A program made the position numbers and the translations under genes. Source: Eledone cirrhosa (taxonomy: Eukaryota). Taken from it: a stretch of 64,000 nt of DNA. Positions 4,711 to 58,984 of the stretch are shown piece by piece (position 1 is the first letter of the stretch; each line of letters begins with the position of its first letter). A model generated the notes under the pieces. The model made no database searches and had not been told where the DNA came from. It was given only the letters and a program-made list of their open reading frames with translations. The stretch spans positions 302,622,001-302,686,000 of the forward strand of contig OZ024743.1 of NCBI GenBank assembly GCA_964016885.1, given 5' to 3'.

Positions 4711-4862
4711 CAGGAAAGCCGTAGGGAAGCGGTAGAGATAGATAGATAGATAAGTGCATATACGTGTGTATCTACTTAAATTTAATTAAGAATGTTTAAA
4801 CGTATGTATATGTATATATATATATATGTAGGAGGTGAGCTTTATTGTAGTACAATAAAGCA

Positions 4863-5783
4863 ATGCAGATATCGGATAAGAAGCACTCTACAGTTTGTAG
4901 GACTGGAGTATATATAATATATAAGATCAAAATGTCAAACCTAAATTCCTCAAAAAATGTTTTAGTCCACTCTGACAAAACCAATAATTTATATGGTATT
5001 TCCAAGGATAACTATAACAACCTTATCCTAAAGGAACTTAGGAAAACATATCGTAAAACCAACCATGATAATTTAGAATCCATAAACTTTGAAGCCTCTG
5101 AGATTATGTCAAAACTTGGCATCGAAAAAAAGACCGAACCATTCCTCCCAAGAACTCCGATGATAAATCTCAAGGATCACAAAAACAATTTTCGTACTGA
5201 ACTACCTGTTAGATTAATCGACCCCTCTAAATCAGATCTGGGGGTTGTTAGTAAAGCCATCTTGGATAGAATTATCCCACATATTCGTTCTAATTGTTCT
5301 TCTTTGAACTTAAACTTATGGTTTGGTACTTCTGAAGTAATTGGCTGGTTCAACAAATTGAATAATAAAAACAAACTAAAATTTGTTCAACTTGATATTG
5401 CCAGCTACTATTCTTCTATTTCGCCTTCACTTCTCAACAATGCTCTATCTTTCGCATTTAAATATTCTGACATCACCACAGATGAACTTCACATCATTCT
5501 CACCGCACGCAAAACCATCCTAGAACTCAACAATGAATATTGGACCAGAGCTGATACATCTAACAACTTCGACATCACAATGGGAGCATCCGATTCATCC
5601 CAATTGACAGATTTATTTGGTATCTTTATTTTGAACTCTTTGAGTCGGAAAATTCCTCAACTTCGCGGTGGAATTTATCGTTACGATGGACTCTTTACTA
5701 TCTTAAATGGCAACATAGTTAACCTTAATATTATTAAGAACAATATACGTAATCTCTTTAACCAACATAACTTAAAAATTTAA
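4863..5783 (+). pseudogene. PLE reverse transcriptase (catalytic YRDD mutated to YRYD; premature stop)
   Basis: DKTNNLY, LKDHK..F...PVRLIDPSKSDLG, FVQLDIASYYSSI, FDITMG..DS, GGIYRYDG. Confidence 0.9.
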
Positions 5784-5813
5784 TTTGATAAGAGCATCAA
5801 ACTAGCTAATTTC

Positions 5814-6995
5814 TTGGATGTATCTCTTAATCTTGACACTGGCCTATATTACCCTTACGATAAAAACAATGAGAACCTAAATTATGTTAATTTTAGATCT
5901 AACCACCCCACTAATATTAAGAATGCTATAGTTAGTAATATTGGAAAAAGAATATCTAACCTATCTTCTAATAAAAATATTTTTGATGCTAACGCCAATT
6001 ACTATAATAACGCGCTTTCTAAAGCCGGCTATCCTGATAAAATCAAATATAGTAAAGAAACAAATTCTAGAAGATCTAACAGTAGATTAATTGATCATGA
6101 TCATTCCAATAACTTTAATAAAAGACCTAGATACAAAAACATAATCTGGTATAATGCTCCTTTCTCCATCTCTATTAATAATAATATTCCTAAATTATTC
6201 TATAGTGCCTTAAATAAATGCTTCCTTCCCTCACATATCTATAGTAAAATATTTAACAAACACACTATAACATTTTCCTATTCGACATCCTCCAACATTT
6301 CCAACATTATCTCTAAACACAACAATAAAATACTAAATACTAAATCTCTTCCTTCCAACACTGAATATCATAATAATAGTAATAGTACTCCCGAAGTCAT
6401 TGTAAACTCTAGGCTAATTTCTGCAAACCCTAATACAACGTCAAACACAACTTCGCTAAATATTCTTAATCCCATTCTAAATCAAGAAACTATTATTCCT
6501 ATTGCAAATAACTTCTCCAATCCAATTCCTTCTATAGATTACACTAGGTCACTCGTTAATAATCTCTCTAATCGCAATTGCAATTGCCCTGTTAAAAATA
6601 AATGTCCTCTCAACAACCATTGGCTTGATAAAAAACCTAATCTACGAACGTAAAGTTATAACTGACACCAATTCCTTCACTTATTTTTGGCTCCACTTCC
6701 ACCTTCTTTAAAGCTCGTCTTTATAATCATCATTCGTCTTTTAAATACCCACTTAAAAGAACTAACACAGCTCTCTCAGAACTCATATGGTCCTTGAAAG
6801 ACAAAAATATTAAATATAACATATCTTGGAAAAAGGTTTCTTCTATCCAAGTTCTCTATCCAAGACATGCAATCTCTATCTAAAGGAAAAATTTACCTTT
6901 ATATCTAATTTAGATTCTATAATAGATAGACGCACTGACTTGTTTTCTCTCTGCTTGCATAAATTCCACAGAACATTCCATAAAGTATACAGCTA
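5814..6995 (+). pseudogene. PLE RT thumb/linker and frameshifted GIY-YIG endonuclease
   Basis: FLDVSLNL..GLYYPY, SNHP, IIWYNAPFS, CNCPVKNKCPLNN; then GSTS.FFKARLYNH in another frame. Confidence 0.85.
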
Positions 6996-7988
6996 ATATC
7001 ATAAACTTTATCAATTTAGAATCCTTTTCTCAAAGGCACATATATATATATACTTCTTTTTTTTTAAATATACCCGTCTTTCTACCTTATTTCAAAGTTA
7101 TTTATTATACATTATATAATAATTGTTACTCATTCTATATCACTCCTATTTATCACTTCCCTTTCTCCTTTTCCTTTTCTTTTCTTTTTCTTTTAATTTC
7201 TAACCCCTAATCTGTACCTTTTCTCACTGTGCCTCACATAGAAACAATTATTACACAATACAATATATTCTTACCTTATATCACCTTGAAAAAATCCTTC
7301 GTAAACATAAACACATTTTTTGGACGTTAGATTATTCATCCTCAATTCATTATTTTTTTCTCCCTTTCATCTAACTTATTCATGCTCATCTCACAATATA
7401 TTCATGCTCATCTCACATTACTTTTGTTTTTTTAATAATACATATCAACATTTTCTTTACATCGCACATATTATTAAACCCTTAAATATTATTCTTAATA
7501 CATATTAACATTTTCTTTCCATCGCACATATTATTAAACCCTTAAATATTATGCTTAATATATATTAACATTTTCTTTTCATCGCACATATTATTAAACC
7601 CATCAATATACAAACCTTAACTTTACATTATTTTTCTCTTCGTTAATTTTCAAATTCTTTTAATTTATACATTATCTTCCAATGGTTTTTCAACCTCTCT
7701 ATGTAAAACAATATATTTTTCTCAGTTATAAAAGCTATCTCTTTCTCTATCACCCATCTCTCCCCCCATCTCATCCTTCCTCATTATACTCCTCCCCCTC
7801 CACTTTTTTACTCTCATCTCCTCCTCTTTTTCTTCCTTTACAACCTCCCCCCCACAAACATTTTTTTTTCCCAATATCACACATCAATCTAAAAGTACTT
7901 TTCATATGTTGATTTAAAACTGCACTATTCGCAAGTGTTTTTAACCTTCATATCATGTCTTCCTATTTTATGTGATGAAAACACAAAT

Positions 7989-8032
7989 ATTATTGCATGA
8001 TGATATTTGTTTTTGAAATGCGCATAATAAAA
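7989..8032 (+). ncRNA. Possible degenerate minimal hammerhead at PLE 3' end
   Basis: TTATTGC ATGATGA TATTTGTTTTT GAAA TGCGCA TA ATAA. Stem III is palindromic (ATGCGCAT) but the core and stem II are imperfect. Confidence 0.35.
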
Positions 8033-8072
8033 TACATGGAACTCTTTTAACCATCTTTTGATCTTTTGATCT

Positions 8073-8120
<48 letters not shown>

Positions 8121-8354
8121 GAATAATCGAGAATCGGAATATCGGCCTACGAAATCACGATAAACAATATCCGACATGTGTGACAGAGGGCTCAATAATT
8201 TGGATAAATCAGAGCTATAACCATCGTTAAATTACCAACACATTGAGATCATGCCTAAAATCACCCGTGCAGGCGAAAAGAACGACCAGGAAGATTCGGG
8301 TCACTCAAATAAAATATCGATAAATTAATAAATTAAATGAATGTAAAAAACTCA

Positions 8355-8491
8355 CCCGGACCCGCTAGAAGGGTGTTAAATCTAGCTTCTTGGGTTTCTG
8401 CATTTCCTTAATCCAATCACTATCAGCCCACATAAAAAAATATATAAGACTTCTAGAGAAGGGGTGGACGCGGAACAGCTTTCTCAACGGG
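8355..8491 (-). ncRNA. Type I hammerhead, U3-A8 core, expanded stems II and III (copy 1)
   Basis: Minus strand: CCCG TTGAGAA [AGCTGTTCC...GGAAATGCA] GAAA CCC..CTAGA..TCTAG.GGG TC CGGG. Confidence 0.7.
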
Positions 8492-8982
8492 ATTTCGTCC
8501 GACAATAAAGAGGGGTGCTATAGCCAAGAACGCACATGGTACTCAGCAAGGGAGATAACCTCTATATTAGCGAAAGAATTCGGTGATGTGCAAATTATGT
8601 AAGAATACAAAATATCACATATCGAATCAGAGTGCTCAACAGACGTGTTAAAATAAACAGGAGCTATTCATCAGTCAATAAGCTCGACAAAAAAATAATC
8701 AATAAAATTAACTGGTCAATAGCTAAGGTCTAGAGCTAAATATAGTAGAATAATCGAGAATCGGAATATCGGCCCACGAAATCACGATAAACAATATCCG
8801 ACATGTGTGGCAGAGGGCTCAATAATTTGGATAAATCAGAGCTAAAACCATCGTTAAATTACCAACACATAGAGATCATGCCTAAAATCACCCGTGCAGC
8901 CGAAAAAGAACGACCAGGAAGATTCGGGTCACTCAAATAAAATATCGATAAATTAATAAATTAAATGAATGTAAAAAACTCA

Positions 8983-9119
8983 CCCGGACCCGCTAGAAGG
9001 GTGTTAAATCTAGCTTCTTGGGTTTCTGCATGTCCTTAATCCGATCACTATCAGCCCACATAAAAAAATATATAAGACTTCTAGAGAAGGGGTGGACGCG
9101 GAACAGCTTTCTCAACGGG
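8983..9119 (-). ncRNA. Type I hammerhead, U3-A8 core (copy 2)
   Basis: Same motif 628 bp downstream. Stem II base GC-TGTTC/GGACA-T-GC. Confidence 0.7.
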
Positions 9120-9844
9120 ATTCCGTCCGACAATAAAGAGAGGACCTATAGCCAAGAACGCACATGGTACTCAGCAAGGGAGATAACCTTTATATTAGCG
9201 AAAGAATTCGGTGATGTGCAAATTATGTAAGAATACAAAATATCACACATCGAATCAGAGTGCTCAACATACGTGTTAAAATAAACAGGAGCTATTCATC
9301 AGTCAATAAGATCGACAAAAAAATAATCAATAAAATTAACTGGTCAATAGCTAAGGTCTAGAGCTAAATATAGTAGAATAATCGAGAATCGGAATATCGT
9401 CCCACGAAATCACGATAAACAATATCCGACATGTGTGGCAGAGGGCTCAATAATTTGGATAAATATATATATATATAAATATCAAATAATTAAATTAAAT
9501 ATGTAAAATTTGGCTTTGTTTATTATAAATTATAGATATACAACTATATATATTTCGGTGACAGCCATCATTGTCTGTGATCTCTTCAGGCAGTCAGAAT
9601 TGGTGTGGAAAAGACAGGTGCACATGTTGTTGAAGTGTGTTTTACTCCGTCAATACATCGTTATGTCCAGCTCCTGGTTGTGTTGTTATTTCTATGAGGA
9701 ACTGGAATCATATAAGTTAGAACAAACGATTTTCGGCGTCATAGGACACGCTCGCATCCCATTGGTCTATTGTGAGAACATTCATCAGTCAAATATATAT
9801 ATATATATATATATATACAGAGAGAGAGAGAGAGAAGAGAAGAC

Positions 9845-12053: not shown

Positions 12054-12600
12054 CTATATATTGGGCTTAAAGTTTTGGAAGGAATGTCTGAAGCGGTGCT
12101 GGCAAGTTGCGAACTCTTCAGATTTTTTGTTAAGTAGGTTATGGTTAGAGAAGATAATAGTGTGGGTCTCTAGTATACAGAGGTTACAACATTTATTAGG
12201 TGGTTTGTACGAAGTCGCGCTACCTATCACTTCCCATTTGAGTGTGTAAGGTTTATTTTTAGTTTTTAGATAGTGTATGTAGCAAGATAGTGAGGTGGAG
12301 CTGGCTAGACTGTGCTTTTTGAACGAATGGATGTGCGAATCATACCTGGTTTTGAAGTAGTTAGAAGTGGAGCCTACATAGGTTTCTGAAGAGTTGCTGG
12401 TTGTGACGGTGCATGAGTATATGATATCTTTGATTAGGCATGTTTTATCTAAAGGGCAGGTTCTATTTGCTGTACAGTTACAATTATTCTGGGTGTTAGT
12501 CTGCTGGTTATAATGGTGTGCACAAGTCTGGGTGGTAGCTATAGGATTTTGGATATGTGGGTTGTCGTCCCCGGTGTTATTGCTTATACTAGTGCTATTA
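12054..12600 (-). CDS. PLE GIY-YIG endonuclease domain (5'-truncated; the N-terminus of ORF 12054-12662 comes from the inverted pLTR)
   Basis: CNC...TCPLDKTCL, IIYSC, TYVGSTS..FKTRY..H, CNLCILE, LLNKKSE, CQHR. Confidence 0.88.
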
Positions 12601-12674
12601 CAATATTTGCATATGTATCTGTATGTCTCTTGGGTTGAAAAGGAGGTCATACAAGTGTTCATTCATTAATAAAT

Positions 12675-17294: not shown

Positions 17295-17572
17295 GGTAAT
17301 TGTTTCTACTTTTGGCACAAGGCCAGCAAATACCCAGCACATTAGTGGTACTTTATTTTATCGAGCCCGTATGCGTGAAAGGCAAAGTTAACCTCGGTGG
17401 GTGACTAATAATTGTCTCTACTTTTGGCACAAGGCCAGCAATTATACAGTGTATTACTGGTACTTTATTTTATCGACCCCGTAAGGATGAAAGGCAAAGA
17501 TAAGCTCGGTGGGATTTGAACTCAGATCATAAAGAGCCGTAAATCTTTGCTACAAAGCATGGCGTCCGATCC
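17295..17572 (-). mobile_element. Two tandem copies (one partial) of the tRNA-derived SINE
   Basis: CTACTTTTGGCACAAGGCCAGC...TTTATCGA.CCCGTA repeated at about 17306 and 17417; B-box in the second copy. Confidence 0.8.
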
Positions 17573-31519: not shown

Positions 31520-33420
31520 CTTTGGTTCATGTTGGTTGGTTTTCGCTTCTGTATCCTTTATATCGTTTAATTTAATGTATTCAGTCCTCAATGTTACCAT
31601 TGACTGAACAACGGTCAAAAATACAGATACAATATATACACAAACACATATATATATTCTAACAAAGTGCTTTTGTTGCACATCTGCAACATCGTCAGTG
31701 GTGCTATTATGTTTCCTCCCGTTGTATTGTATGTCTACGCCATCTTTATTTAGTCTTTTTATTTATTTATTTATTTGTTTATTTTTTGTCTTCTCTGCGC
31801 ATGCGTTTGCGTGGGTGTAAGGTGTTTCATTTAATGTGTGTTCGTGTTTGGGTGACTGTGTATTGGTTATTTTATTCTATCTTAGTTTACTAGTGTGTGT
31901 TTATATGTGTTTGTTGTTATTGTGCTTGTGTATGTATTTATTTATTGATTTATGTATACTTCTCTTAGGTCAGTGCTTTTTGTTTGGGTCTTGTTGTTAT
32001 TCTATTGTTTCTGTTTAACCTTGGCCTTCTAAGTTCTATTTTACTGGCTTCTCTGATTTGCCTATCTGCTGGGTCATTTCTATGTTTAGATATTATTCTA
32101 ATTTCTATGTTGTCTATGGTAACGTCGTGTTGTTGTCTGACATGTTCGTATAGTACTGAACCGTTTTTCCGTCCTTTTAGTTCCCCCCCAGTGTTGGTCT
32201 ATCCTTTCACATATGCTACGAGCTGTCTCGCCTATGTATGTTGTTGTCATGTTTCTGCAAGTACCATATGTACATCTTTTGCTATATACTATGTTTCTAG
32301 ATTTACAGTTTATCCGAGGCTTTACTTTACATATGATACATTTCCTATTAGTATAGTGGGTTTTCTTAAAAGGGTAGGTTTTGCTGATCAGGGATTTTAT
32401 GGTGGTTCTTGGCTTTTCTACCACCTCAATCTTTAAGTGGGTCTTTCTCATCGCCTTTCTACACGGGTTAGCTAATTTCCCCATCCAGGGGTAGCGTCCA
32501 CAAACATGATACTCTGGTATCTTGGGTTGTCGTAACATGAGGTGGCTTTCCCTATCTTATGTCTAGTCCTATCTAAGCTATTCCATGATTTGCTCCCGTA
32601 TAATGGTCAAATTCCTTTCATGTCCAGTTCTATGAGGAGCTTATACTTCTCCGTGGCTCCTTCGTATACTCTGATTCGGTCTCTTTGGATGTAGCCAGAG
32701 AACTGCATGCGGTTCTTGAAGTGTTGGATGTGTCTTTCCATTTCTGTTTGGTCGCACATGCGGGACACGTTTTTCATCACTCGTACCATGTCTGCGACCA
32801 GAATATTAAATTTAGCACTACTGGACAATGTTGAGTTTTTGAGTATCAGGTATTTGGAGGCCATGGGTTTAGCCTAGTGTGAGTGGAGAATTTGGGCTCT
32901 CTCGTCTATAATGTTAATCCAGAGTTCCGTGTCTAATACAGGTATTCTATTGTTAGGGTGTTTGGAAGGGTAGTCGATAGTTACAGTTATACTCTTGTGT
33001 ATGGAATTATATATCTGCTGGATGCTTTCCATTGTGCTACGTTCTAAATCAAACTTGTTAGTGCTCTCTTGTGGGGATGTCCTTATTACTATATTTATGT
33101 CGTCTATGTAACGAGAGTACATGATGAGGTTATGGAGCTCTCATCATGGAGATCTTTGAGTCTCTTTTCCGACCATAGCATAAAAAGGCTGGCAACGTCT
33201 CCAGCTATGCTGACGCCGATGGCTGCTCCCTCATTTTGGGTGTAGATCTTCTCGTTGAACTTGAATGTGTGGCCCTTTAAGGTAGTTTTGATACTAGCTG
33301 CTATTGCATGTGCGACCATTGTTTTTGGGGCTCCGTATAGATTTGGTCCACCCAAACCACCTTCCCAGGGGAGTCTTTTTTGTAATTGAGGTTATAGTGC
33401 TGTCTACCTCTTATGGGTCT
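31520..33420 (-). mobile_element. Neptune-like PLE (family C), left arm: RT fragment, GIY-YIG, 3' UTR
   Basis: FKFNEKIYTQNEGAAIGVSIAG, YSRYIDD, IPVLDTEL, MQFSGY, YIGETARS. Degenerate HHR at 31655-31707. Confidence 0.9.
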
Positions 33421-34942: not shown

Positions 34943-37900
34943 TTATGTCCTGGATATGACATTAAACTACATCCAGTGGCAAGGCTCCAGTTCGGGAGTT
35001 CAGGAGTTGTGGGGAATGTGGTGTTACCCCTTAGTTGTCATGACTCCCAGGTCGGCCCTGGCCCGGGGTAGTAGTACATGTTAGGGCTCCATTTATTGGC
35101 TAAATAACTACCTTATTCGAGTGGCGCCTGTAAGTATTGTCAGCCATTGAAAAGAAATATGGAGAGTCGATCTAACAGCACTAGGGTTAGAGCCCCTAAT
35201 TACACTGACAAGGAGCAGCCTGGTCGTTATGACTCTGCTGGCTTAGAGCCACAGAGAGGGCCAGTGAATGATGGATCAGCTGTCTCTGAAACAAATATAA
35301 AGAATGCAGTTTTGTTCTGCAGAAGAGCCATGAAAATAGGCACTTTGAATGTGAGGACTATTCGGACGCTGGAGAAAAGAGAGGAGTTGGGACATCTGTT
35401 CGAGGAGAGTGGTATACAGATACTTGCGATCCAAGAACACAGGATCCTACACGATGAGCCCGTGAGCAGTGTGACGATCGGGAAGAGGAGCCAGCTCATC
35501 ACTACATCGGCAGTGAAGAACAAAACAAATGCTGTAGTAGGAGGAGTGGGTTTTGTGTTCAGTGCAAAAACCAATCTTTTGGTGAGGGAAATAAATGCCT
35601 GTCTCCCCGCGAGTGTTGAGTGTGACCTTCAATGGCAACCCAAGATTGACAGTCATCTCAGCCTATAGTCCAACCGAGAGGGACAGTGATGTGAGTGCGG
35701 AAGAGTTCCATGAGGAGATGTGTAGAGCTGCCAACACCACTCAGGCACACAATATCCTGCTTGTTTTGGGGGACTTCAATGCACATCTGAGTAAGGAGGG
35801 CAGTGAAATCCTTGCTGGTACTTCCATAACAACACCAAACGAAATGGAAGACTACTGAGAGACACCCTGCTGGAGGCGAACTTGATAGCGACCAACCTAG
35901 GGTTTAGGAAGAATCTGGGGAAGATGAGGACCTACATCTCAGATATGCACCTATCCAAGTCCCAGATTGATTTCACTCTGGTGAGGAAAAAGTGGCGGAA
36001 TAGTGTTCTGAACACTGAACCATACAACTATTTCAGTACACTGGGTAGTGAGCACCGGCTTGTTATGAGTGAGGTCCGGGTGAGCTTAAGAAAGAGCAAG
36101 GCTCGGCCTCGGAGAGCAATCTATGACTGGGGAGCTTTCAAGGAAGATGATAAGCTACAGGAGAGGTTCACAGTGGAAGTGAGAAACAGGCTTAGTGCTC
36201 TGTGTAGAGAGTCAGAGGAGAGAGAGATTGGATGGACTGAGTAGAGTGTGACGAGAAGGTACGGGCACTTCACCAATGCTGGTGGCGGAAGGAAGTGAAA
36301 CCCTGGTGCCGAATAAAAAGAACAAAATGAAGCACGTCAGCTTTGCAAACCCAAAAGTGTGTGCAGCCCGAGAACACCTGAAAGCTGCCAAGGACCAAAT
36401 CTATGCTGATCCTACGGAGGAGAGGATGGAGACTATGGAGCTGATGAGGGAAGAACTCTGTATTGCTTACACTGAGGTCAGAGAGGAGGCACTGATAGAG
36501 AAGTTCAGAAGTGTGGAGAGAGCGGTTGACAGATCTGGATGTAAGGAGAGCTGGATGATCATCAACGAGATCACAGGGAGGAAGAGAAGGTGTTCGTGTC
36601 AGATCCAGGGAACGGGGCCCGAGGATAGGAAGAGGAAATGGCTAGACCATTTTAGGACCATATTAGGAGAGCCACCCTCCACAGCCCAGAGCAGTGGGGA
36701 GATCAGGCGGCTGTTTGAGTAACTGGATGTTGAGATAGAGTCCTTCACCAGAGAGGAGCTTCAGAGAGCCAAGAAGAGGATCAAGGAGGGTATGGCTCAT
36801 GGGGAAGATGGAGTGGCATCAGAGGTGATGAAGAAGTGTGATTTTGATGATATCTTCCTGGGGTTCTGTAACCGGGCACTGGAGAAAGGAGTTGCCCCTA
36901 ATCAGTGGAGGATCAGTAACATCGTCCCAGTGCCAACGAGGGAGATCTCTCTAACACCAACAACTACAGGGGAATCTCACTGACGTCACTTGTGGCAAAG
37001 ACCCTCAACATGATGAGTCTTAATAGGATCTAGCCTGAGATGGAGAAGAAGTTCGGGGACAACCAGAACGGCTTCAGAGAGGGAAGATCAACCACCAGTC
37101 ACATCCTGATGCTGAGGAGGATATTAGAGGGAGCTAGAGCAAAGTGCCTTCCTGCGGACATGGTTTTCATTGACTTTAGGAAGGCCTTTGATTATCTGGA
37201 GCGTTGCTGCCTGATGACTATCTTAGAGGCTTATAGAATCCCCAAGAAGATAGTGGACCTGATATCACTGCTCTACACCAACACCAAAGCCCAAGTAATT
37301 ACACCTGATGGGATGACAGAGTTCTTTGAGATACTGGCTGGAGTGCTCCAGGGAGATACATTGGCTCCCTACCTTTTTATCATCGTAGTGGACTATTGTA
37401 TGCGCCTTGCACTGGAGAAACACCATGACTCTGGCTTTACTGTAGCACCGGCTCAGAGCAGGAGAGTTCGGGCGAAAAAGGTATCGGATGCTGAGTTTGC
37501 CGACGACATAGTTTTGGTGACAAATACAGTGAAGGAGGCAAAGGATTTGATGCGGGAGGTTGAGACTGTGTCGATGAGTGTGGGGCTGAGAATGAATGAG
37601 ACTAAAACAAAATATCTGGTAGAGAATGTTGAGAAGCCAGAGGAGATCACTAATGTAGGCGGGAAGCCGCTAGAATTGGTTGACGGCTTCCTGTATTTGG
37701 GAGCAAAGATTGGGAATACGGAAGATGATGTGTTTGAGAGGAAGAGCAAAGGCTGGGCGGCGTGCCACAGCTTGAGATCGGTGTGGAAGTCGGAACTTCG
37801 TAAAGACCTGAAAATCCGCCTCTTCATTGCTGTGTTGGAGTCTGTGCTGCTGTATGGGTCTGAAACTTGGACACTGACCAAGAAACTCACTCAAATGGTG

Positions 37901-38256
37901 ACTGGGTGCTACACGAGAATGCTGAGGATACCTCTGAACATTAATCAGTATACACTGAGGATGAAAAACTCAGAGCTGTATGGGAGCATCCCAAAAGTCA
38001 GCTCAAAAGTGACACAGAGGAGACTGAGGTTAGCTGGACATGCTCACCGACATCCAGGTTTAACATTGCACTCAGTGCTCCTTTGGGAGCCCCTACATGG
38101 ACACACTAGAAGTGGAAGACCAAGGTTAACGTATGTTGATGCCCTAAGGACAGACACTGGTCTGTTGGAGACGCAGGACATGGCAGCGATGATGAGAGAC
38201 AGATACCACTGGAGAGAACTCGTCCATGGATCTCGGGAATTTTACCCGCCTTAGAT
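34940..38256 (+). mobile_element. Near full-length RTE-group LINE (APE endonuclease + RT) with frameshifts and stops
   Basis: MKIGTLNVRT, ILAIQEHR, AYSPT, LGDFNAH, QIDF; QNGFREGRST, FIDFRKAFD, GVLQGDTLAPYLF, FADDI, FLYLGA, LLYGSETW, RRLRLAGH. Confidence 0.93.
37040..38254 (+). CDS. RTE LINE reverse transcriptase domain (open segment of a disrupted ORF)
   Basis: 404-aa ORF with non-LTR RT motifs as listed for the element. Confidence 0.9.
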   Translation: MEKKFGDNQNGFREGRSTTSHILMLRRILEGARAKCLPADMVFIDFRKAFDYLERCCLMTILEAYRIPKKIVDLISLLYTNTKAQVITPDGMTEFFEILAGVLQGDTLAPYLFIIVVDYCMRLALEKHHDSGFTVAPAQSRRVRAKKVSDAEFADDIVLVTNTVKEAKDLMREVETVSMSVGLRMNETKTKYLVENVEKPEEITNVGGKPLELVDGFLYLGAKIGNTEDDVFERKSKGWAACHSLRSVWKSELRKDLKIRLFIAVLESVLLYGSETWTLTKKLTQMVTGCYTRMLRIPLNINQYTLRMKNSELYGSIPKVSSKVTQRRLRLAGHAHRHPGLTLHSVLLWEPLHGHTRSGRPRLTYVDALRTDTGLLETQDMAAMMRDRYHWRELVHGSREFYPP

Positions 38257-40730: not shown

Positions 40731-42734
40731 CGGTTTCAACACACGATTTCAGATAAATAATCTTGCTAAACAAATTCAGAAACGAAATATATATATATAT
40801 ATTTGTATATGTATATTATATCTGTGTGTGTGTCTGTGTCTGTGTCAGTCTGTGATGTGTGTTGTGTGTATACAGATACCTATGTGTTTGTATGTATTTG
40901 AAACAACGTTAGAGTTTCTTATTACTTGTGTTATGTATATACAGGAATATATACTCTACTGTTTCTGTATCTTAATTTTCTTCATGTATTTATGGTAGAA
41001 ACTGTTTTGTTAGATTGAACATGTAACCACTTTATCAAGAATGCAACTCTGTAGCCGTGGATAGAAGCTGTGGCCTAGTGACTACTCTGGCATTGTTGAT
41101 TTATCCTTGTAATAATAGTGACAATATTGGTTTCCTATATGTTAATGTTCTAACTCTCATGGCAATCATTTCTGGGGATTTCAATATTTTCACTATTTCC
41201 ATCTTTAGATAATTAGTATATTGAATATTCCCAACATTACGTATTTCTACCCTTAGATCTTTTTATATTCAATTCTGTTCATATGTTCGATGTTATCGTT
41301 TGATTCAATGATGATTTTATATATATATATTCTTTGTTCTCTTTTCGCTAGGAATCTATTTTCATGATTTCTGTTTTCAATATTTGCACGTTGAATGCTT
41401 TTATTTTTATAGTGGAAAATTTAATTTTTTTGTGTGTATTTTCTTTATCGCATTTTTTCTTCTATTTCTTTGATTCCACGTTTGATATCTTCGGTTAACA
41501 TATCAATGGCTTTAAATTAGCTACGCTTTTGGTTATTTCTCCAGATATGTTATGTGCATGTCGTAGTAAGAGCGCCTCTTTCATTTTGTTTAGGTTGTTG
41601 AGAAAATACAGCTGCAAATTATGCATATAGTGTGGAAATGTATTTACGTCGAAATCAACACGAATACTTCATCAAAATGCAGGCACTTATGTATTTTTAG
41701 GTTTATATTTTAGAATCATTCAATTGAAGACCGGTGCTCTATTTAGTTCCGCTATATTTGTGATTAGTGTCAGAATAATTTTCATGATTATTCAAGTATA
41801 GCGTAAATACCTACAATGAGTAAGTTTTGAAAGTATGATAATTATTCAGTGAACTACCTTGCAGATGTCTATTATTTGATGAAAAGATATATTGATACGC
41901 AAAACTTATACGCTGATATATCCACTAGTGAAGGGGAGGGGCCTTAAAAAAATTACAATTCATTATGAAAGTTTATCCTGTCCCCATCTTATAATCATTT
42001 GTAATCGTATTTTCTGATAATCACTACTTTAAAAAGGTGAATTCTAAATTATATAATATCATTTTGAAAGAAGTGTGTAATATTAGTTAGTACTCTTTAT
42101 CATGTGAATCTGTGTCTTCTTTACAAATAATGGACAGATTGCAATTAGTCTCAACATCATTAATACACAAAACAGCTAGAAGAGATGTTAATGTATTTCT
42201 TACACTGGCATCTGATACAATTTTTTACAGTTTACATCATTATTATTCCATTGGAGTAAACGGATAGTTTGTGAATGTTGAAGTAGTGATGGTTAATTTT
42301 CGGTAATGAAGCTAGATATATTATTATTATTATCGGATTGTTCGGACGCTTTTTGCTCGCTTCCAGTAAGTCGCTTTAGTTGCCTGTTAAAATTATTTTT
42401 CGTTAAATATTTCTTGATGTGTAAGGGTTATAAGCCGATAGACTTTGCCCTGTAAAGGGGAAAGTATAATATTTGTGCCTTTTGGCCCAAATATTTGAAC
42501 ATTTTACTTTTAAAAATTATTTGAAAAAAAGAAACATGGCTGGTCCACTCACCCCAGCAATACATCCGCTGTTGTGTGACAACGGCGTAAAAGTTGAGAG
42601 GAGGGTTAGTGAAATTCATACAACCACCACAAACAGCGTGAATAAAGACAACAGGGAGAACACTGATTTTGAAAAAATTACCACACCAACTACAACAATA
42701 ACAGCGTCAACCAAAATACAGACAACAGGAAAAC

Positions 42735-43652
42735 ATGACAACAAATGCAACAACGATATTAACTCCACAAACCAATAAAATAAACAACGACAACACCAAC
42801 AGCAACAATACAAATTGCACCGAAAACAACAACAACGGTGGCACCAAAAATACATCCAACTACATCAGTGAAAACAACAACAACACCAACAACACCGTTT
42901 GCAGCAGTAGCAACAGCAACAGCACCAACAACAAGACCCGTAGCGGCAGCAATAATGGTGCCGCTGAAAAAGGGGCCACTTCTTTCGCATGTGTGACCCG
43001 AAATATAGAGACAGTGCTAGTCACGGAGGAGGAGATGGCAGTCGCAAGAGCCATGGTGTCGAGAAACGACAATAGAGTTTCCCTGAAACCTCCACCCGAT
43101 TTATTCAAAGACCAGCAGCTGCGCACAGTGACTTACCGCACCGTCAGCAAAATGTCACATCGGGTGGAAATAGCCACGGTGGCTCAAATCCAAAAGGCCT
43201 TGGGGTGCGTCTGGTCGCACAAAATCCAAATCACCCGAGGCAAAAAGTACGCCACAGTAGACGTAATTTTCGCCATCCCCCAAGAGGCGAAATCTCACAC
43301 TTTGGAAACCCTAAAGAGTGAGGAGATAGTATTGGTGCCCTCCTACTACGGGCAGAATATTGTGAGGGTCAAAATGACCCAGGTCCCGCCCGACGTGCCC
43401 ATACCTTGGCTGATCACGTCTTTACTGGCTGGAATGGAGGAGAAGACCACCATACTACAAATACAGAGAATGGGAAGAGAGAACTGGTCAGGAATAGGCA
43501 TGCAGATGCTAATACAGACTGACCAGGAGTGCATCGCAGCTATCCAAGACATTATAGACCTCGAAGAAGGGCTCCATATACCTTTGAGCGTGGAAGGAAG
43601 GCGCCCAAAGTGCTATCTCTGTGGGCAGAAGTGTCACCTCAGGGCATTCTGA
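42735..43652 (+). CDS. LINE ORF1-like nucleic-acid-binding protein (truncated at the CCHC knuckle)
   Basis: 305-aa ORF, N-rich start, ends in CYLCGQKCHLRAF followed by a stop; lies upstream of the APE domain. Confidence 0.7.
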   Translation: MTTNATTILTPQTNKINNDNTNSNNTNCTENNNNGGTKNTSNYISENNNNTNNTVCSSSNSNSTNNKTRSGSNNGAAEKGATSFACVTRNIETVLVTEEEMAVARAMVSRNDNRVSLKPPPDLFKDQQLRTVTYRTVSKMSHRVEIATVAQIQKALGCVWSHKIQITRGKKYATVDVIFAIPQEAKSHTLETLKSEEIVLVPSYYGQNIVRVKMTQVPPDVPIPWLITSLLAGMEEKTTILQIQRMGRENWSGIGMQMLIQTDQECIAAIQDIIDLEEGLHIPLSVEGRRPKCYLCGQKCHLRAF

Positions 43653-44543
43653 CCACAGAATACAGCCATGAATTGGTCACCCCTCCTCCTCACGCCTGAT
43701 CCACTACTACCAAGAGCAGGGCAGGAAACAGAGACAGAAGACCCTTCCATGTTGAGTGGGAGGGCAACGTCATTGGCACCCATAATAAGGCCACGGACAA
43801 CTAAAGCAGCGGCAGCAGCGGTGGCAACACCAACAGTCACAGTAGCCACACCGGCGGCAAAATTGCCGTAGCGGGCTCCACTACCACCACCAACAGCTGT
43901 GGAGCTCATACCCTTCCCAGACGCAACGGAATCTGATATAGAGTATGAGGCGGGAGGGAAGTGACAAACAGTCTGACACAAAATACAAAAGAGGAAAAAC
44001 CCTAAGATTCACCCTCCAAAAGTGAAGGAAGAAAAAGACGTGTAAAGGCTGCAGGGAGACTTGCAGCAACACCACCAGCATCGCCATCACCACCACAAGC
44101 ATCACCACCAACAACAACCACACCTCTACCAGCATCACCAAAATCGCCAGCATCGCAAACACAACAAAACACGCAAACCCAACAGCAACAAAATCACCCC
44201 TCCCCCCAAAAAGTAAACAGCCATAAACATGGAAAATAAAGAACTCATACAACATATAAAGCAGCACACAAACATCACAGACATAAATCTACTCCAGCCC
44301 GCCAACCCCATGAACTCTCCCGACAAACATAAGCATCATTGAAATGAAAATAGAACAGTACAGACTTTTAAAACAAAAACTACCCAACGCAGTTGGAGAA
44401 TTGAGCGGGTCGGTTACCAAGAGAATATACACCGACATCTTCTTGCAAACACCCATGACCAGCCAAAGGGACGGTTCTACTATCCCTTCACCACACGATC
44501 AGGGTAAGTGATCCTTTCTCACTTGCCATGTTTCTTACCCAAC

Positions 44544-47500
44544 ATGGCCGTACTTAGAATAAGCAGTATAAATGTACGTGGCCTGGGGTCATTATGGAAG
44601 CGGGGTCACCTGCTCAACGACCTCAGGTCACTAAACATAGATCTGGTGGCCATCAGCGAGACCAGAACCTCCGAAGCATGTGCCTTCGGACCGTTCTTCG
44701 GTGACTACGATGTATACACATCTCCCAGCCGTCCAAGATCGGGGAGTGGGGTTGCCGTGCTTTAACGGAGGGGGCTTTGATCTCGCCATACGGGCCATCT
44801 TCCTGGACCCATAAGGTAAATCAGTGCTGCTGGACGTGACCGGCAGCGAAAGCAATGCTTTCAGGCTAGTATCCGTCTAGCCCCAACAGGGCAAGGACGG
44901 CCAGATATCTTCAGATGTCTAGAGAACTTTATTGGAACGTCCCGCTCTTTAGTGTTAGTGGGCGACTGGAACGGTATCTTCGATTCACGCTGGGATTATA
45001 TGGAGCTAGTAGACAGCACAGGCGGGTGTGAAAGCCTCAACAACCTGCTCAGACGTTTTCAACTGTCTGACAGATATAAACTGGATTATCGGAATGTGCC
45101 CATGTGGACATGTGCAAACCGCATCGGGTGAACCAGATGGTATTTAGATAGGGGATTTGTAGGGAAACAGATAAGGCTAGTGTAGGTTGTCCACAATTTA
45201 AAGTATTCGACTACACAGACCACACATTTGTGATCTGTGAAGTTGACTTAGATAGACTCCATTAGCAAGGGCCCGACTACTGGAAGCTGAAGGCGTCATT
45301 CTCGGCGCGCAAAGCTTACAGAGACCGGATTAGCCAATTGGTTAAGCGTGCGTTGACGGGTGCGATCGTCAACAGCAGTTGGTGGTTTACCCGGAAAAGG
45401 GCTATTAGAGTAGAATCGATAAGGTTTAGCAAAGGAATAGTGATAGAGGAAATTAGAGTAGAGGGAAAGTTAGTTAGAAATCTAGAAGAGGCGTTTAGGA
45501 CAGGCGTCCTTGCAGAGAGATTGGCACTTAACAAATTCTCCAACGCAAATCATGAAGGCTGCGTTGCCAGAGCTAGAGCGCGTGCTCTAAGACACGAGGG
45601 GACGAAAGCCATTCAATGGGCCTGGGTGGTGGAGGCCCGACGTAGAAACAATTCCACAATTCGGTTTTTTCTGATCAACACGGGTGTATGTGTCTCGAAC
45701 CCGAGCAGATGTGTGCGGCTTTTCAATAGCAATTTGCTCAATTGTTCGGGAGCGGTGGCGGACCAGGCCCAGTATGGAATTTGGTGCATACCTCGACGGC
45801 CTGCTCCTGCTCTCGACGACCGCTGCGCAGTGCTGCGAAAAGCCGATAGCAGCATGTGAAATACGGGAAGCGATGTCTGACTGCACGTGGAGTAAATCTC
45901 AAGGTTTGTATGGTCTTCCCTACGAGCTTTTTGCGTATATGCCAGACTTGTTCGGCAACCTCTTGGCAGATGTCTACTGCAGCTGGCAGCAGAACGGGAG
46001 CATTCCTCGTTTTGTGACCCGAGGAGCGGTGGCGCTGCTGAGAAAAGGGGGACGTTATAGACAACTTCAGGCCCATAACTCTGCTAAACGCAGAGTTTAA
46101 GATTTTGGTCAAGGTGTTAGCAAAGAGATTGGCGCTTCTCGTCGGTGATCTGGTGGAAGAGGTCCAGACATGCGCCATTCCGCACAGATCCTTACATGAC
46201 AGACAACCTAGATCTCATAAAATACATCATCGAGAGCGTGTTTAAGGAACATGTCACGGGTGGTGCTCTGATAAACTTCGATCAATCTAACGCATTTGAT
46301 AGGGTCGACCAACGGTACCTGGCTGCGTTCCTCGAAGCGGCCGGCTTCGAGCCCGTCTTTAGGAGCTGGTTCGCTGCGATGCACAGTTACATCTGCTCGA
46401 TTGTGAGCGCGAATGGTCACCTGTCGCAGCCATTCGGTATCATGTGCTCGGCCCTCCAGAGTTGCCCCCTTTCATCCCTCTTCTACATACTAGGTCTAGA
46501 GCCGTTACTACACAAATTGGATTCGATGAGGGGGGTCCCACGCGACCTGGGATGCGGGCGAACCTTGTCAGCTTTCGCCGACGACGTCACCGTGGTGGTG
46601 TCGAGCACCAAACACTTCCAGATGCTCGGCACGGCTCTCAAGGAATACAAAGCGGTGACAGGAGCAAAGATAAACCAGGAAAAGTCGGTGAGCCTGCAAC
46701 TTGGCACCTGCAGAGGCAAATCCATGCCGTCCGATAGCGTCGTGTGGCGCTGGACGGAAGGACAAGTTTAAATTGCTCGGGGTCTGGTTCGGTCTGGACC
46801 TCCAGATGGAGAAATACTGGAGCGAGGAGAGTAGTAAATTGGCCACTCTCACCTTGAAATGGGCCGAGAGGGGGCTGAGGTGGCGAATGCCTGCATAGCG
46901 TCCGTCATCTGTTACTGCCTGGCCGTCGTACCTTGCCCGACCAACTCTGACCAAAATGGAGCGCATTCTCTTCCACTTTTTTGTGGAAGGGACGTGCTCC
47001 CATGGTCAGACGAGCCATGCTGTCAACACCCGGTGCCTGGAGGACTAGGCATGCAGTGGCTGATTATGCGCAAACATGCGCTGAGGCTGAGACATATTTG
47101 GGGCTTCCTTGGCGGTGAACAGGTGTGGTCGCCGTTTGCCAGACGCGCTTTTCCCTTGCTCGTCTCCTTGATGTAACTGCAGTCCTGGATCAGGATAAGA
47201 CTGAGAGATAACGCTTGGAAGCTGGAATATCTCCAAGCGCTCACCACCTTCTACCAGCTGGGCACTAGTATCGGTGGAACATCCACCTCGGCGTTATATA
47301 GAAGGCTAGTGGAGGGAAAGTGCGATGACGTTCTCGGGGAGACACTGGGCGTCGAAGACGATCAGCTGTTCGATCTCTTCAAGAGAACTTTTAGACCGGG
47401 ACCCATCTACAACTTCCAGGTATCCCTGGCCTGGAAGTGCTACCGGGGAGCGTTGCCGATTCGGGATAAGCTCTACAGGCACGGAGATACTGTTAGCCGA

Positions 47501-54829: not shown

Positions 54830-54875
54830 GGAGAAGAAGTTTATGAAACGGAAATGCGGGTATAAAGAATTTATT

Positions 54876-54992
54876 AGGTAACAATTGTTTCTTTTGCGTA
54901 TGGGTTACCTATACCTCGCTATTTGAATAATATAAAAATATTATCATAAACCGAAGGTACACTGCAAGCAAACACACCATGTCGTCAGACAT
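54876..54992 (-). ncRNA. Hammerhead with about 90-nt stem II at PLE 3' end (family E)
   Basis: ATGT CTGACGA CATGGTGTG...CATACGCAAAA GAAA CAATTG TT ACCT. Confidence 0.6.
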
Positions 54993-55329
54993 TTGTATTG
55001 GAATGATATGAAAATATTTTATACACTAGATAAAAGAGAAAGAAGGAGGTAGGAAGAGAAAGGGAAGAGGGAAGTGAGTAAGGGGAAGGAGTCCTAGGAT
55101 TTAAGACTGTCAGACTCATAGAGATTGTAAGGAGAGAATGTTTTGGCAGCAGTTAGCTTAATGGGGCGTGTTAGGGTTGGCGGGGGAAGTAAATTCTTCT
55201 AGTGTTGTTGTTTGGACAAAATTTAGTTAAAGGGGTCAAAGTGGTACAGAGTTACAGACAAGTTATTGGGGCTATTATAGTAGCAGGTTATTTCTAAAGG
55301 CGTCCAGAAAACAGTGTTTAGTACTATTA

Positions 55330-56232
55330 TTATAGAAAGCCATATCTTGTGTATAAACATATAAAACAGAAATTTGCAAACGGTGGTGTAAAAAGGTAAC
55401 ATTGTATGCATTTAAAAAAAGAAAAAGTCGTTTTCAAACGATGGTTACAGTATAGTGAACGTTCAAGTTTGCTGTTCAAAAGTTTGTTTACCGACATTAA
55501 AATGCAGTATATCTCCAAATTGCATAATTTACAGAATAGATTATTTTCCTTATATGCAGGCGCAGCGTCAATACTTTGCCAATCAAGGGAGAATGCTTGA
55601 TTGTTCCTCCGGAGCTGCCAGGCTTTATCGGCGAGGGTTGTTACGGAGCGCATTTTCTCGTGCCTGATCGAAGATCGATGTTGGTAAAGGCGAGCTTTGA
55701 AAGATGTTGCGGTACATCCGACGTAATACCATTTGTTGGTTCCGGAATGTATTGTACATCGGTAGACAATATTGCGTGCTAGGTACTGGTTATTCAGTGG
55801 GCTCGTACCTGGTTTGGTGCAGTTACAATAATTTTTATGTTTTGCAGTAGTATCCTGGATAGTTTGGTGGGGTTGTAGTTGCGTGTTAGTGCGTTGTATG
55901 TTGCTATGCTGGTGCGTTGAGTCGTTAGGGATGTACTTATTTAGTATTGCTGAGTTGAGTTTTTTAATTAGTTGTTCTATGTTAGGTGAAGTGGAGTATG
56001 AGAGTCTAATGGTGCGCGAGTTAAAGATGTTATAGTATTTATGTGAAGTTGTAAAGTGTTTATTGATTAGTGTATAGAATTGTGAGATAATCTTAGTCCT
56101 AATAGAAATATTGTACACGGGGTTATACCATATGTACTCTCTACGTCTGACTCTATTTGCTGGTTTGCACCTATTAGTATGCCTATTGATGTGTGGTGCA
56201 ATACTAGTTCGACTTAGATGTGTTTTATTCAT
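55330..56232 (-). CDS. PLE linker + GIY-YIG endonuclease
   Basis: IWYNPVY, CNC, IVYRC, YYVGCTATSFKARLYQH, CKLCNLE, LLNSKLE, CNHR. Confidence 0.9.
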   Translation of the reverse strand: MNKTHLSRTSIAPHINRHTNRCKPANRVRRREYIWYNPVYNISIRTKIISQFYTLINKHFTTSHKYYNIFNSRTIRLSYSTSPNIEQLIKKLNSAILNKYIPNDSTHQHSNIQRTNTQLQPHQTIQDTTAKHKNYCNCTKPGTSPLNNQYLARNIVYRCTIHSGTNKWYYVGCTATSFKARLYQHRSSIRHEKMRSVTTLADKAWQLRRNNQAFSLDWQSIDAAPAYKENNLFCKLCNLEIYCILMSVNKLLNSKLERSLYCNHRLKTTFSFFKCIQCYLFTPPFANFCFICLYTRYGFL

Positions 56233-56316
56233 AGTACTTATGTGGTTATCGTCTAGATATTCTATTTTTTCGCAGTAACCAGCTTTACTAAGTGCATCAT
56301 TATAATATTCAGAATG

Positions 56317-57221
56317 CTAGTTGAAGGTCTGCAAATTAGACGACAGTCGGGAGATCCTTATGGATATATTTTTAGGGATAGATTTAATAATGGAATGGGG
56401 ATGGTTCGATTTTACATTAACGTACTTGAGATTTTCATTAAGTTTGTTAAATGGCTCTATATTACCGTTATTAAGGTTGAAGGTGACATCCAAGAAGTTG
56501 ACCACCTTAAGATTGTGTTCGAAGGTAATATTAAGCCCAAGTTCTAAGAAAAGCTTCCTAATATTTTTACGTCGCCTTTCTAGGTTTAGTTTGTCCATAT
56601 TCTTGACTAATAGAAGTGTGTCGTCGCGGTATATTCCGCCGTGGAGGTCCGTAAATTCGCTCTGGAGTCTGTGGGCTAAATAGATCCCAACCAGATCCGT
56701 GATCTCCGCCGAATCATTAGAACCCATCGTAATGTCGAATTCCGAGGGTCTATCTCTGCGGACCCAATAACTATTTTCAAAATGCACTACTGTGCGTCTA
56801 GCTTCAAGAATAATATTAATTTCCTCGTTTGTGAGGTCCGAGTTAGTCTTAGCGAATGAGAGGGCCTTATGCAGGGTTTCGGGTGAAATAGAGGAATAGT
56901 ATTCATCTATATCGAATTGAATAAAAGAAGATTTGTTTTTGTCCCTAATGTTATTGAACCAGCTTATTGCCTGTTGAGTATTACCCCATAATTTAATATC
57001 TACCTTAGCCTTAACTTGGGGGATAATACGATCTAATATGTACTTATTGATTCTACCTATATCGGATTTTGAAGGACATATTAATCTAATTTTAGGGTTA
57101 GTATCGAAGTTATCCTTATGGTCCTTCAGATTAAAAGTCGGTGTAGCTGGAGATAGGGGTACCGTTCTGTCGTCAATTTTCAGTTTCTTAACAATATCAC
57201 ATGCTGCGTTATTAATGTTGG
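56317..57221 (-). CDS. PLE reverse transcriptase (5'-truncated, YRDD intact)
   Basis: LKDHKDNF..NPKIRLICPSKSDIG, FIQFDIDEYYSSI, FDITMGSNDSAE, GGIYRDD, NFLDVTFNL, SNHP. Confidence 0.92.
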
Positions 57222-57235
57222 TCATTCCAATACAA

Positions 57236-57352
57236 AGGTCTGACGACATGGTGTGTTTGCTTTCAGTGTACCTTCGGTTTATGATAATAATTTTATATTA
57301 TTCAAATAGCGAGGTATAGGTAACCCATACACTATAGAAACAATTGTTAACT
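57236..57352 (+). ncRNA. Hammerhead with about 90-nt stem II, inverted pLTR copy (family E)
   Basis: AGGT CTGACGA C ATGGTGTG...TGTACCTT...GAGGTATA...TACACTAT A GAAA CAATTG TT AACT. Consensus stem I AGGT/ACCT from the two copies. Confidence 0.7.
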
Positions 57353-57506
57353 AATAAATTCTTTATACCCGCATTTCCGTTTCATAAACTTCTTCTCTAT
57401 ATTTTCTCCGGATTTTAAAACACACTTTATTATACGTTGAGCAATCTCCGACGTCGGTTGACTCCATCTTATGCAACTACTTAGTAACATTGGAATACAA
57501 ATTTAC

Positions 57507-57583
<77 letters not shown>

Positions 57584-58130: not shown

Positions 58131-58199
<69 letters not shown>

Positions 58200-58264
58200 A
58201 AGAGAGAAGAAACATTTAGATATAATTAGTAATAAAATGTATCATACCTAAACTGCTCCTAGAT

Positions 58265-58879: not shown

Positions 58880-58953
58880 ATCTAGGAGCAGTTTAGGTAT
58901 GATACATTTTATTACTAATTATATCTAAATGTTTCTTCTCTCTTCATAATGTA

Positions 58954-58984
<31 letters not shown>

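What the first reader, a model, noticed from the sequence alone, without database searches (positions are those of the whole stretch)
8114..9463. 628-bp ORF-less tandem element with a U3-A8 hammerhead in each unit: candidate large animal retrozyme / circular RNA
Seen: about 2.15 head-to-tail near-identical units inserted in (TA)n. Each full unit has, on the minus strand, CCCG-TTGAGAA-[about 80-nt structured stem II]-GAAA-CCC[stem-loop]GGG-TC-CGGG, with predicted GUC cuts at 8987/8986 and 8359/8358. Established: C3-G8 is a Watson-Crick pair in the active hammerhead core and U3-A8 can replace it. Non-LTR retrozymes are non-coding HHR tandem repeats that yield circRNAs, and those I know in animals are mostly shorter (a few hundred nt). 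Inference: double cleavage frees a 628-nt monomer, and the non-integer copy number fits rolling reverse transcription of a circle, plausibly by a PLE RT. Standard CUGANGA/short-stem searches would miss this motif.
Basis: partly seen in the sequence, partly recalled or inferred. Interest (0 to 1): 0.9.

Follow-up and report, generated by a model that had tools for sequence, protein, structure and literature searches.

The report
Self-cutting repeat spread by Penelope elements
This is one copy of an abundant 628-base non-coding jumping repeat of a known kind (a retrozyme); each unit carries a conserved, predicted self-cutting RNA, and the ends of its genomic copies pile up just short of the predicted cut, which likely records cutting in the living cell, although neither cutting nor RNA circles have been shown.

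Summary
In detail: 627+628+96 bp head-to-tail units (97% alike) in (TA)n, no real ORF, and the hammerhead motif at the stated cuts. It belongs to a genome-wide superfamily of 600-630 bp units (5,198 exact motif hits; 52-98% identity). Across 25 representative copies the core reads U3-UGA-N7-(A/G)8-A9, stem I changes only C to U, and stem II covaries, so the fold is under selection. Corrections: copies are not permuted (all start at one internal site beside (TA)n, a Penelope-like-element hallmark), stem II opens with an A·A mismatch, U3-A8 is in print, and 628 bp lies within the published retrozyme range (51-972 bp). New here: in two families the variable ends pile up within about 30 nt before the predicted cut (rate ratio 4-6, p<1e-6), while about half of the copies run through it. 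Best reading: a non-autonomous retrozyme copied by a Penelope-like RT from both cut linear RNA and uncut templates (circles likely, multimers not excluded). No donor element and no RNA data were found. The scan noted similar U3-A8 retrozymes before, including a 591-bp unit in this genome.

The parts
8073..8117 (.). (TA)n target run at the fixed end of the element
   Evidence: same flank in nearly all copies; 343 exact TA-flanked starts
8114..8125 (-). Fixed 3' end of the insertion (RNA ...UUCUACUAUA), the inferred internal reverse-transcription start site; its last bases match the (TA)n target
   Evidence: internal fixed initiation shown for a PLE RT in PMC11167929
8114..8740 (-). Unit 1, 627 bp, non-coding
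8741..9368 (-). Unit 2, 628 bp
9369..9464 (-). Partial unit 3 (96 bp), the 5'-truncated end, joined to TA by microhomology
8355..8491 (-). Type I hammerhead, copy 1: stem I CCCG/CGGG, core U3-A8, A·A mismatch then G-C in stem II, long stem III; predicted cut 8359/8358
   Evidence: it is the minimum-energy fold of the 151-nt fragment
8983..9119 (-). Type I hammerhead, copy 2; predicted cut 8987/8986; one private change in stem II puts the hammerhead fold 2.6 kcal/mol above the minimum
8359..8986 (-). Predicted 628-nt cut-to-cut monomer (candidate circular RNA)
   Evidence: folding z = -4.9 linear; as a circle z = -3.2 on the minus strand against -0.8 on the plus strand; existence not shown
8925..8928 (-). 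Conserved CCCG 57 nt after the cut (copy 1 at 8297-8300); can pair with the CGGG of stem I and is a candidate off-switch
   Evidence: present in 20 of 22 representatives; paired with probability 0.5-0.85 in 5 of 7 predicted circles, 0.05 in the window's own
9464..9478 (.). Short (TA)n at the variable end

Best explanation
This is a dispersed copy of a non-coding tandem repeat family with a conserved hammerhead fold in each unit, most likely a non-autonomous retrozyme that a Penelope-like element (PLE) reverse transcriptase copies into (TA)n. Proposed cycle. (1) A locus with two hammerheads, such as this one or a long array, is transcribed on the minus strand (inferred; promoter unknown). (2) The hammerhead cuts after GUC, probably slowly or with protein help (predicted; supported by the end pile-up). 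(3) Part of the monomer is likely ligated into a circle by a host ligase (inferred from other retrozymes). (4) A PLE protein likely nicks (TA)n and starts reverse transcription at one internal site, 246 nt downstream of the cut (the fixed start is shown; the enzyme is inferred). (5) On cut RNA the RT runs off the 5' end and gives 213-246-bp copies (length class shown). On uncut RNA it passes the site and gives 1.x- to 3.x-unit copies such as this one (shown). Only copies with two hammerheads, about 6%, could seed the next round (inferred).
For: Dispersed, young, multi-chromosome family: 505 exact hits of the 22-mer start, 92-97% identity among full-length top hits. Superfamily of 52-98% identity keeps the fold. 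Named-structure count on 25 representatives: 92.7% of cells paired, 5 of 8 stem II pairs change on both sides, 30 such cells against 9.8 in shuffles (0 of 500), stem I 99 of 100 cells paired with C-to-U changes only, slid controls 22-60% paired. Position 7 is free (G66 A41 U19 C8); position 9 is A in 130 of 134. Fixed start beside (TA)n. Inverted or jumped 5' pieces as in PLE insertions (L111/L129, L012, L093). Family A: 27 of 84 length-unbiased insertions end at unit positions 213-246; AT-matched rate ratio 4-6, Poisson p 8e-13 and 2e-8, regression p 1e-6; this is the best window in the unit. Family B, an independent sample: 18 of 48 at risk end in the 20 nt before the cut and 1 of 30 in the next 20. 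The cut junction is intact in nearly all copies that cross it. Repeats within one insertion share rare variants (22 sites), and only 6 unit-specific differences recur, each in 2 loci. The genome is PLE-rich (10,597 GIY-YIG candidates). A PLE with a 938-aa RT+GIY-YIG frame carries U3-A8 hammerheads in both terminal repeats and ends in (TA)n (L161).
Against: No cleavage assay and no RNA evidence. No donor PLE: blastn and an nhmmer profile of the superfamily found nothing in 46 PLE loci; the only links are a 12-nt end match and one direct junction. The core departs from the canon at two places: position 3-8 is U-A 93, U·G 36, C·A 3, U·C 2 of 134 (array units inflate counts), and 10.1-11.1 is a mismatch. 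The published active mismatch is U·U, not A·A. RNAalifold does not recover stem II. With 45 nt of upstream sequence stem I is predicted at P<=0.05 in 18 of 22 representatives. The isolated hammerhead is not more stable than shuffles (z -1.1). Stem III begins at the cut, so an RT pause would leave a similar pile-up. Arrays of 17 and of at least 50 units exist, so uncut multimers can also give multi-unit copies. In the one PLE studied in vitro, cleavage was not needed and no reads ended at the cut. Three of the 13 measures aside, the two pair-type counts were not above shuffles (83 and 145 of 500).
Confidence: 0.8

Rival explanations
1. Same PLE-mobilised hammerhead element, but without a circle. 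Templates are linear read-through transcripts of arrays or dimers that are only partly cut; the RT starts at the fixed site of any unit and stops at the first upstream cut or earlier.
For: A 17-unit family-A array and a 608-bp array of at least 50 units exist. The end pile-up repeats in the second unit (5 of 13 at risk), which a sealed circle does not predict. Stem I is weak in context. A PLE RT used unprocessed RNA in vitro.
Against: The one family-A-type array seen is only 91% like the window unit, and the other internal junctions are scattered one to three per locus, so most subfamilies have no visible array to feed them. Repeats within an insertion share rare variants and show no inherited unit-specific differences. 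Only 5 of 84 copies hold two hammerheads, so multi-unit copies must be regenerated. Circles are shown for coral, mussel and axolotl retrozymes.
Confidence: 0.35
2. The hammerhead-like fold is a conserved structural or protein-binding element that does not cut. The end pile-up comes from RT pausing at stem III or from a transcription start at that place, and the element is a PLE-dependent SINE-like repeat.
For: Atypical core (U·G at 3-8 in 36 of 134, a C·A subfamily L198/L239, A·A at the base of stem II). 51 of 84 copies cross the site. Eight of nine Xenopus retrozyme dimers did not cut in vitro.
Against: The conserved and free positions follow the catalytic core (UGA, A9 and GAAA fixed, N7 free). 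Ends reach -2 to -4 of the cut and then drop sharply in family B. Other hairpins in the unit give no such pile-up (0 ends at 180-212).
Confidence: 0.13
3. The unit is the terminal repeat (pLTR) of an autonomous PLE not yet found, and these are its truncated copies.
For: Same layout as the L161 pLTR: hammerhead, AT-rich stretch, then the fixed end 150-250 nt later. 24 of 57 Xenopus retrozyme families match known repeats, nearly all PLE ends.
Against: Copies longer than one unit run back into the same unit and never into an ORF. No homology to the PLE loci tested. Origin from a pLTR remains likely, but the present unit moves on its own.
Confidence: 0.05
4. A local tandem duplication or satellite with a chance hammerhead-like motif.
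For: Some relatives form satellite-like arrays.
Against: Hundreds of dispersed insertions with one fixed end, covariation and strand-specific folding.
Confidence: 0.01

Closest known systems
Metazoan non-LTR retrozymes (Cervera and de la Pena 2020, PMC7229834, parts 2-4 of 6 read; Li, Clavereau and Pollet 2026, bioRxiv 10.64898/2026.07.22.740005, parts 1-3 of 5 read, supplements closed)
   Same: Non-coding tandem units, one type I hammerhead per unit, GC under 50%, no LTR, monomers to long arrays, PLEs in the same genome, unit length within 51-972 bp.
   Different: Longer than the invertebrate circles shown so far (about 170-400 nt). U3-A8/U3·G8 core with an A·A mismatch, an 80-nt stem II and a long stable stem III that needs no dimer. 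A fixed start site and 5' ends at the cut are not described in the parts I read. RNA and circle not shown here.
Hammerheads of Penelope-like elements (Cervera and de la Pena 2014, PMC4209133, parts 1-2 of 4 read)
   Same: Type I topology, short stem I (4-5 bp), extra nucleotide after A9, G-C at the base of stem II, and the U3-A8 variant (about 1,300 hits in Schistosoma).
   Different: Those are minimal motifs with almost no stem III, thought to work as dimers, and lie in pLTRs beside an ORF. Here stem III is long, there is a further A before G12, and there is no ORF.
PLE target-primed reverse transcription with internal initiation (Frangieh et al. 2024, PMC11167929, parts 1-2 of 4 read); microsatellite bias of PLEs (Craig et al. 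2021, PMC8557442, passages)
   Same: RT starts at a fixed internal RNA site; AT-rich or (TA)n targets; partial tandems and inverted 5' pieces.
   Different: The anole element starts at a site not homologous to the target and did not need cleavage. Here the start site resembles the (TA)n target and many copies end at the predicted cut. The mobilising PLE is not identified.
Natural hammerhead core variants (Perreault et al. 2011, PMC3088659, section 8 and passages)
   Same: Natural U3-A8 covariation and a mismatch at 10.1-11.1 are described.
   Different: The mismatch there is U·U. I saw no A·A mismatch and no U3·G8 family in the passages read (searches found nothing on U3-G8); supplements not read.

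Membership tests
Non-LTR retrozyme | Head-to-tail non-coding units, no LTR, no ORF | tested here: met
Non-LTR retrozyme | One type I hammerhead per unit, at least two consecutive units complete | tested here: met
   two complete motifs in the window (variant core)
Non-LTR retrozyme | Multi-copy, dispersed plus arrays | tested here: met
Non-LTR retrozyme | Self-cleavage of the transcript | not testable with these tools
   indirect only: end pile-up at the predicted cut
Non-LTR retrozyme | Expressed as linear and circular monomer RNA | not testable with these tools
   no RNA holder listed; contigs cannot show it
Non-LTR retrozyme | PLEs present in the same genome | tested here: met
Type I hammerhead ribozyme | Core Y3-U4-G5-A6-N7-R8-A9, G12-A13-A14, A15.1-U16.1, H17, with a 3-8 pair | tested here: met
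   U3-A8 in both window copies; 3-8 can pair in 129 of 134 copies (93 U-A, 36 U·G); UGA was required by the census pattern
Type I hammerhead ribozyme | Three helices with covariation | tested here: met
   outer stem III and the 3' strand of stem I were fixed by the search pattern for copies
Type I hammerhead ribozyme | Watson-Crick pair at 10.1-11.1 next to the core | tested here: not met
   A·A (or C·A) mismatch, then G-C; a U·U mismatch there is known in active ribozymes
Type I hammerhead ribozyme | Loop I-loop II tertiary contact of canonical animal hammerheads | not tested
   stem II is about 80 nt and poorly alignable
PLE-mobilised non-autonomous element | Fixed internal 3' start, 5' truncation, partial tandems, inverted 5' pieces, microsatellite target | tested here: met
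PLE-mobilised non-autonomous element | Sequence shared with the terminal repeat of an autonomous PLE | tested here: inconclusive
   none in 46 GIY-YIG loci of 10,597 candidates; only a 12-nt end match
Autonomous PLE | RT plus GIY-YIG open reading frame | tested here: not met

The most novel reading that the evidence does not exclude
The lengths of these insertions record the RNA life cycle of an animal retrozyme. A PLE RT primes at one internal site on both the self-cut linear monomer, giving dead 213-246-bp copies, and the ligated 628-nt circle, giving multi-unit copies. The ribozyme tolerates U3-A8/U3·G8 exchange with an A·A mismatch and is switched off in the circle by a conserved downstream CCCG. 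This would be direct genomic evidence for the so far hypothetical circle-templated, PLE-driven spread of retrozymes.
Probability: 0.4. Interest if true: 0.7.

Novelty: new variant of a known kind. Interest (0 to 1): 0.47.

Why it matters
How retrozymes get back into DNA is a hypothesis in the papers read (PLE RT on a circle), and the role of PLE hammerheads is open. This superfamily offers thousands of insertions with one start site and a sharp drop at the predicted cut, so the proposed cycle can be tested on a natural substrate with a PLE protein from the same genome. It also widens the natural hammerhead core (U3·G8, A·A at the base of stem II, long stems), which Rfam misses. The class itself, the U3-A8 pair and the size are known.

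Tried and rejected
Rfam at gathering and E-value thresholds: no hammerhead match. Sequencing runs: no RNA holder listed; three runs of unknown kind, laid as contigs, cover the element and its repetitive flanks and tell nothing on expression. Donor PLE: blastn of the unit against L131-L176, an nhmmer profile and local alignment of the 3' 120 nt gave no significant match; only 46 loci were examined. Permuted starts: rejected. The CUGAUAG inside stem II and the CUGAUGA elsewhere in the unit as a second hammerhead: rejected; neither came up in the descriptor scan and neither is kept across families. Template switch between subfamilies to explain unit 1 versus unit 2: unit 2's four family-type variants occur together in no other haplotype. 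A simple on/off folding switch: not shown, since stem I is also weak in nascent-length fragments; the L231 row there was mis-anchored. RNAalifold consensus recovers stems I and III but not II. Look-up of earlier findings by sequence: nothing. Literature searches found no description of this family or of 5' ends at the cut; 'octopus' and 'cephalopod' were a guess from recall and the taxon was not determined. Closed or unread supplements (2026 preprint, Repbase-type libraries) may already list it. Rows left out: family A count, L039 (array) and L111 (rearranged); family B count, 4 duplicate loci. Three B 'ends' at position 308 are insertions of another repeat, about ten B loci lack their first unit in the stretch fetched, and a few are mis-chained; these lie outside the pile-up. 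Family A lengths were read by hand.

Full report
Observation. The element is as described. Units of 627, 628 and 96 bp lie head to tail at 8114-9464, 97.5% alike, between TA runs. The longest ATG ORF is 66 aa. The minus strand carries CCCG-UUGAGAA-[82 nt]-GAAA-CCC..GGG-UC-CGGG twice, with H17 at 8987 and 8359. Rfam has no match at either threshold.

It is a mobile family. The unit has 3,079 candidate places in this 3.0-Gb genome; among the 40 scored, full-length matches are 91-100% identical. The first 22 bases occur exactly 505 times, control 0: 343 directly after (TA)n and 96 as internal junctions. Nearly all copies begin at the same unit position beside (TA)n, and the other end varies. Starts are therefore fixed, not permuted. 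A sister family B (606-bp unit, about 69% alike) has the same layout. The 3' half of the motif has 5,198 exact hits. These belong to homologous 600-630-bp units of 52-98% identity, including arrays of 17 and at least 50 units.

The hammerhead is under selection. The 5' core box was not part of the search pattern, yet it lies about 80 nt upstream in 134 of 155 distinct copies held; most misses are truncated or interrupted. Position 3 is U in 131, position 7 is free, position 8 is A in 96 and G in 36, position 9 is A in 130 (UGA was required by the pattern and array units are not independent). On 25 representatives the named structure is paired in 92.7% of cells. Stem I changes only C to U against G. 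Five of 8 stem II pairs change on both sides, with 30 such cells against 9.8 in shuffles (0 of 500), and slid partners pair in 22-60%. The two pair-type counts there were not above shuffles, and relatedness can inflate the others. The cut-to-cut monomer folds better than shuffles on the minus strand only (z -3.2 against -0.8; -4.9). Against: a C3·A8 subfamily exists (L198, L239), RNAalifold misses stem II, the isolated motif has z -1.1, and stem I is predicted weak once flanks are added. Activity may be low or protein-assisted, as for the anole PLE hammerhead.

A footprint of the cut. I took the first 100 hits of the start 22-mer, a sample blind to length, and counted 84 insertions (one array and one rearranged copy left out). 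Twenty-seven end at unit positions 213-246, just short of the cut at 246: 1.0 ends per 100 nt at risk against 0.15 elsewhere. Against equally AT-rich positions the rate ratio is 4-6 (p 8e-13 and 2e-8); a regression with AT content and TA microhomology gives 5.6 (p 1e-6). A perfect TATATA stretch elsewhere has only 4 ends. In family B, 66 loci sampled the same way, 18 of 48 at risk end in the 20 nt before the cut (-22 to -2 overall) and 1 of 30 in the next 20. The simplest reading is that many templates had their 5' end at the cut. An RT pause at stem III or a transcription start there would look similar and is not excluded. At the same time 51 of 84 A copies and 28 of 66 B copies cross the site with an intact junction, 25 of 84 exceed one unit, and only 5 of 84 hold two complete hammerheads, as this copy does.

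Circle or multimer. Repeats within one insertion share rare variants (22 sites in 7,554 compared positions; 3 in this copy, 6 in L119, 5 in L127), and unit-specific differences recur no more than I would expect by chance (6 of 120, each in two loci). This fits one monomer read more than once. But arrays exist, the pile-up repeats in the second unit (5 of 13), and a PLE RT used uncut RNA in vitro. I put the circle at about 55%.

The mobiliser. A fixed internal start, (TA)n targets, partial tandems and inverted 5' pieces are PLE traits (L111/L129, L012, L093). The genome has 10,597 GIY-YIG candidates. One PLE with a 938-aa RT+GIY-YIG frame has U3-A8 hammerheads in both terminal repeats and ends in (TA)n (L161; the RVT_1 score is just under its cut-off). 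Other PLE hammerheads here have a U·U mismatch at the base of stem II. No sequence homology to the unit was found in 46 PLE loci. The only links are a 12-nt end match between L161 and the 615-bp family and one direct junction in L124; both are weak. The donor is not identified.

Comparison with what is known. It works like, and by every testable feature belongs to, the animal non-LTR retrozymes (PMC7229834, parts 2-4 read; bioRxiv 10.64898/2026.07.22.740005, parts 1-3 read), whose units span 51-972 bp. U3-A8 is in print for PLE hammerheads (PMC4209133, parts 1-2) and for others (PMC3088659, section 8 and passages). Cleavage and circles could not be tested. I found no description of this family, of U3·G8 families or of 5' ends at the cut in searches; supplements were not read. 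Earlier notes of this scan report similar U3-A8 retrozymes, one of 591 bp in this genome; I did not test whether it is related.

Verdict. A real element and a new variant of a known kind. Confidence is about 0.8 for a PLE-mobilised retrozyme with a working or recently working hammerhead. The fixed start and the drop at the cut make the open life-cycle model testable, so I score interest 0.47.

Noticed in passing
window 58195-58960: A second, unrelated (TA)n-inserted element with a U3-A8 type I hammerhead (UUGAUAA, 58-nt stem II, palindromic stem III) in an inverted pair at 58349-58270 (-) and 58795-58874 (+); the same element is in L156.
   Followed up: partly
window 4851-8075: A broken PLE-like RT/GIY-YIG element on the plus strand; a decayed hammerhead (GTGATGA...GAAATGCGCATA, about 7965-8035) lies just before the TA run into which the retrozyme inserted. 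Intact copies of that hammerhead are in L166 and L173. Family assignment is by recalled motifs; Pfam gave no hit.
   Followed up: partly
window 54830-57510: A young PLE-like element (RT and C-terminal GIY-YIG, one stop between the two frames, inverted terminal piece) between TA runs; a 94%-identical copy is in L233. A possible long-stem hammerhead lies at its 3' end.
   Followed up: partly
L277, L279, L236, L299: A SINE-like repeat is inserted at one site in the stem II loop of family B copies, with different 5' truncations and a target duplication in L277, which suggests a site-specific parasite of the retrozyme. A similar repeat lies at window 17297-17513.
   Followed up: partly
L124 (also L051): The 5' end of a 2.4-unit copy, at the cut region, is joined without a TA spacer to the 3' end of an L161-type PLE repeat: insertion into that element's tail or a template switch.
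   Followed up: partly
L317-L318; L320, L122, L123, L321; L200-L215: Long arrays of related units (17 x 627 bp; at least 50 x 608 bp; several of 615 bp). The 17-unit array starts at the same fixed site in (TA)n; its units differ by 0-13 bases in a block pattern that suggests local amplification.
   Followed up: partly
window about 8530-8540 and 9158-9168: A CAYGTG box about 50 nt upstream of the hammerhead is kept across all families compared; possible promoter or structural element.
   Followed up: no
window 35108-38254 and 42702-46771: Broken LINE-like frames (endonuclease and RT pieces) of two different kinds; also GIY-YIG pieces at 12054-12662 and 32098-32556 (named from recalled motifs).
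   Followed up: no
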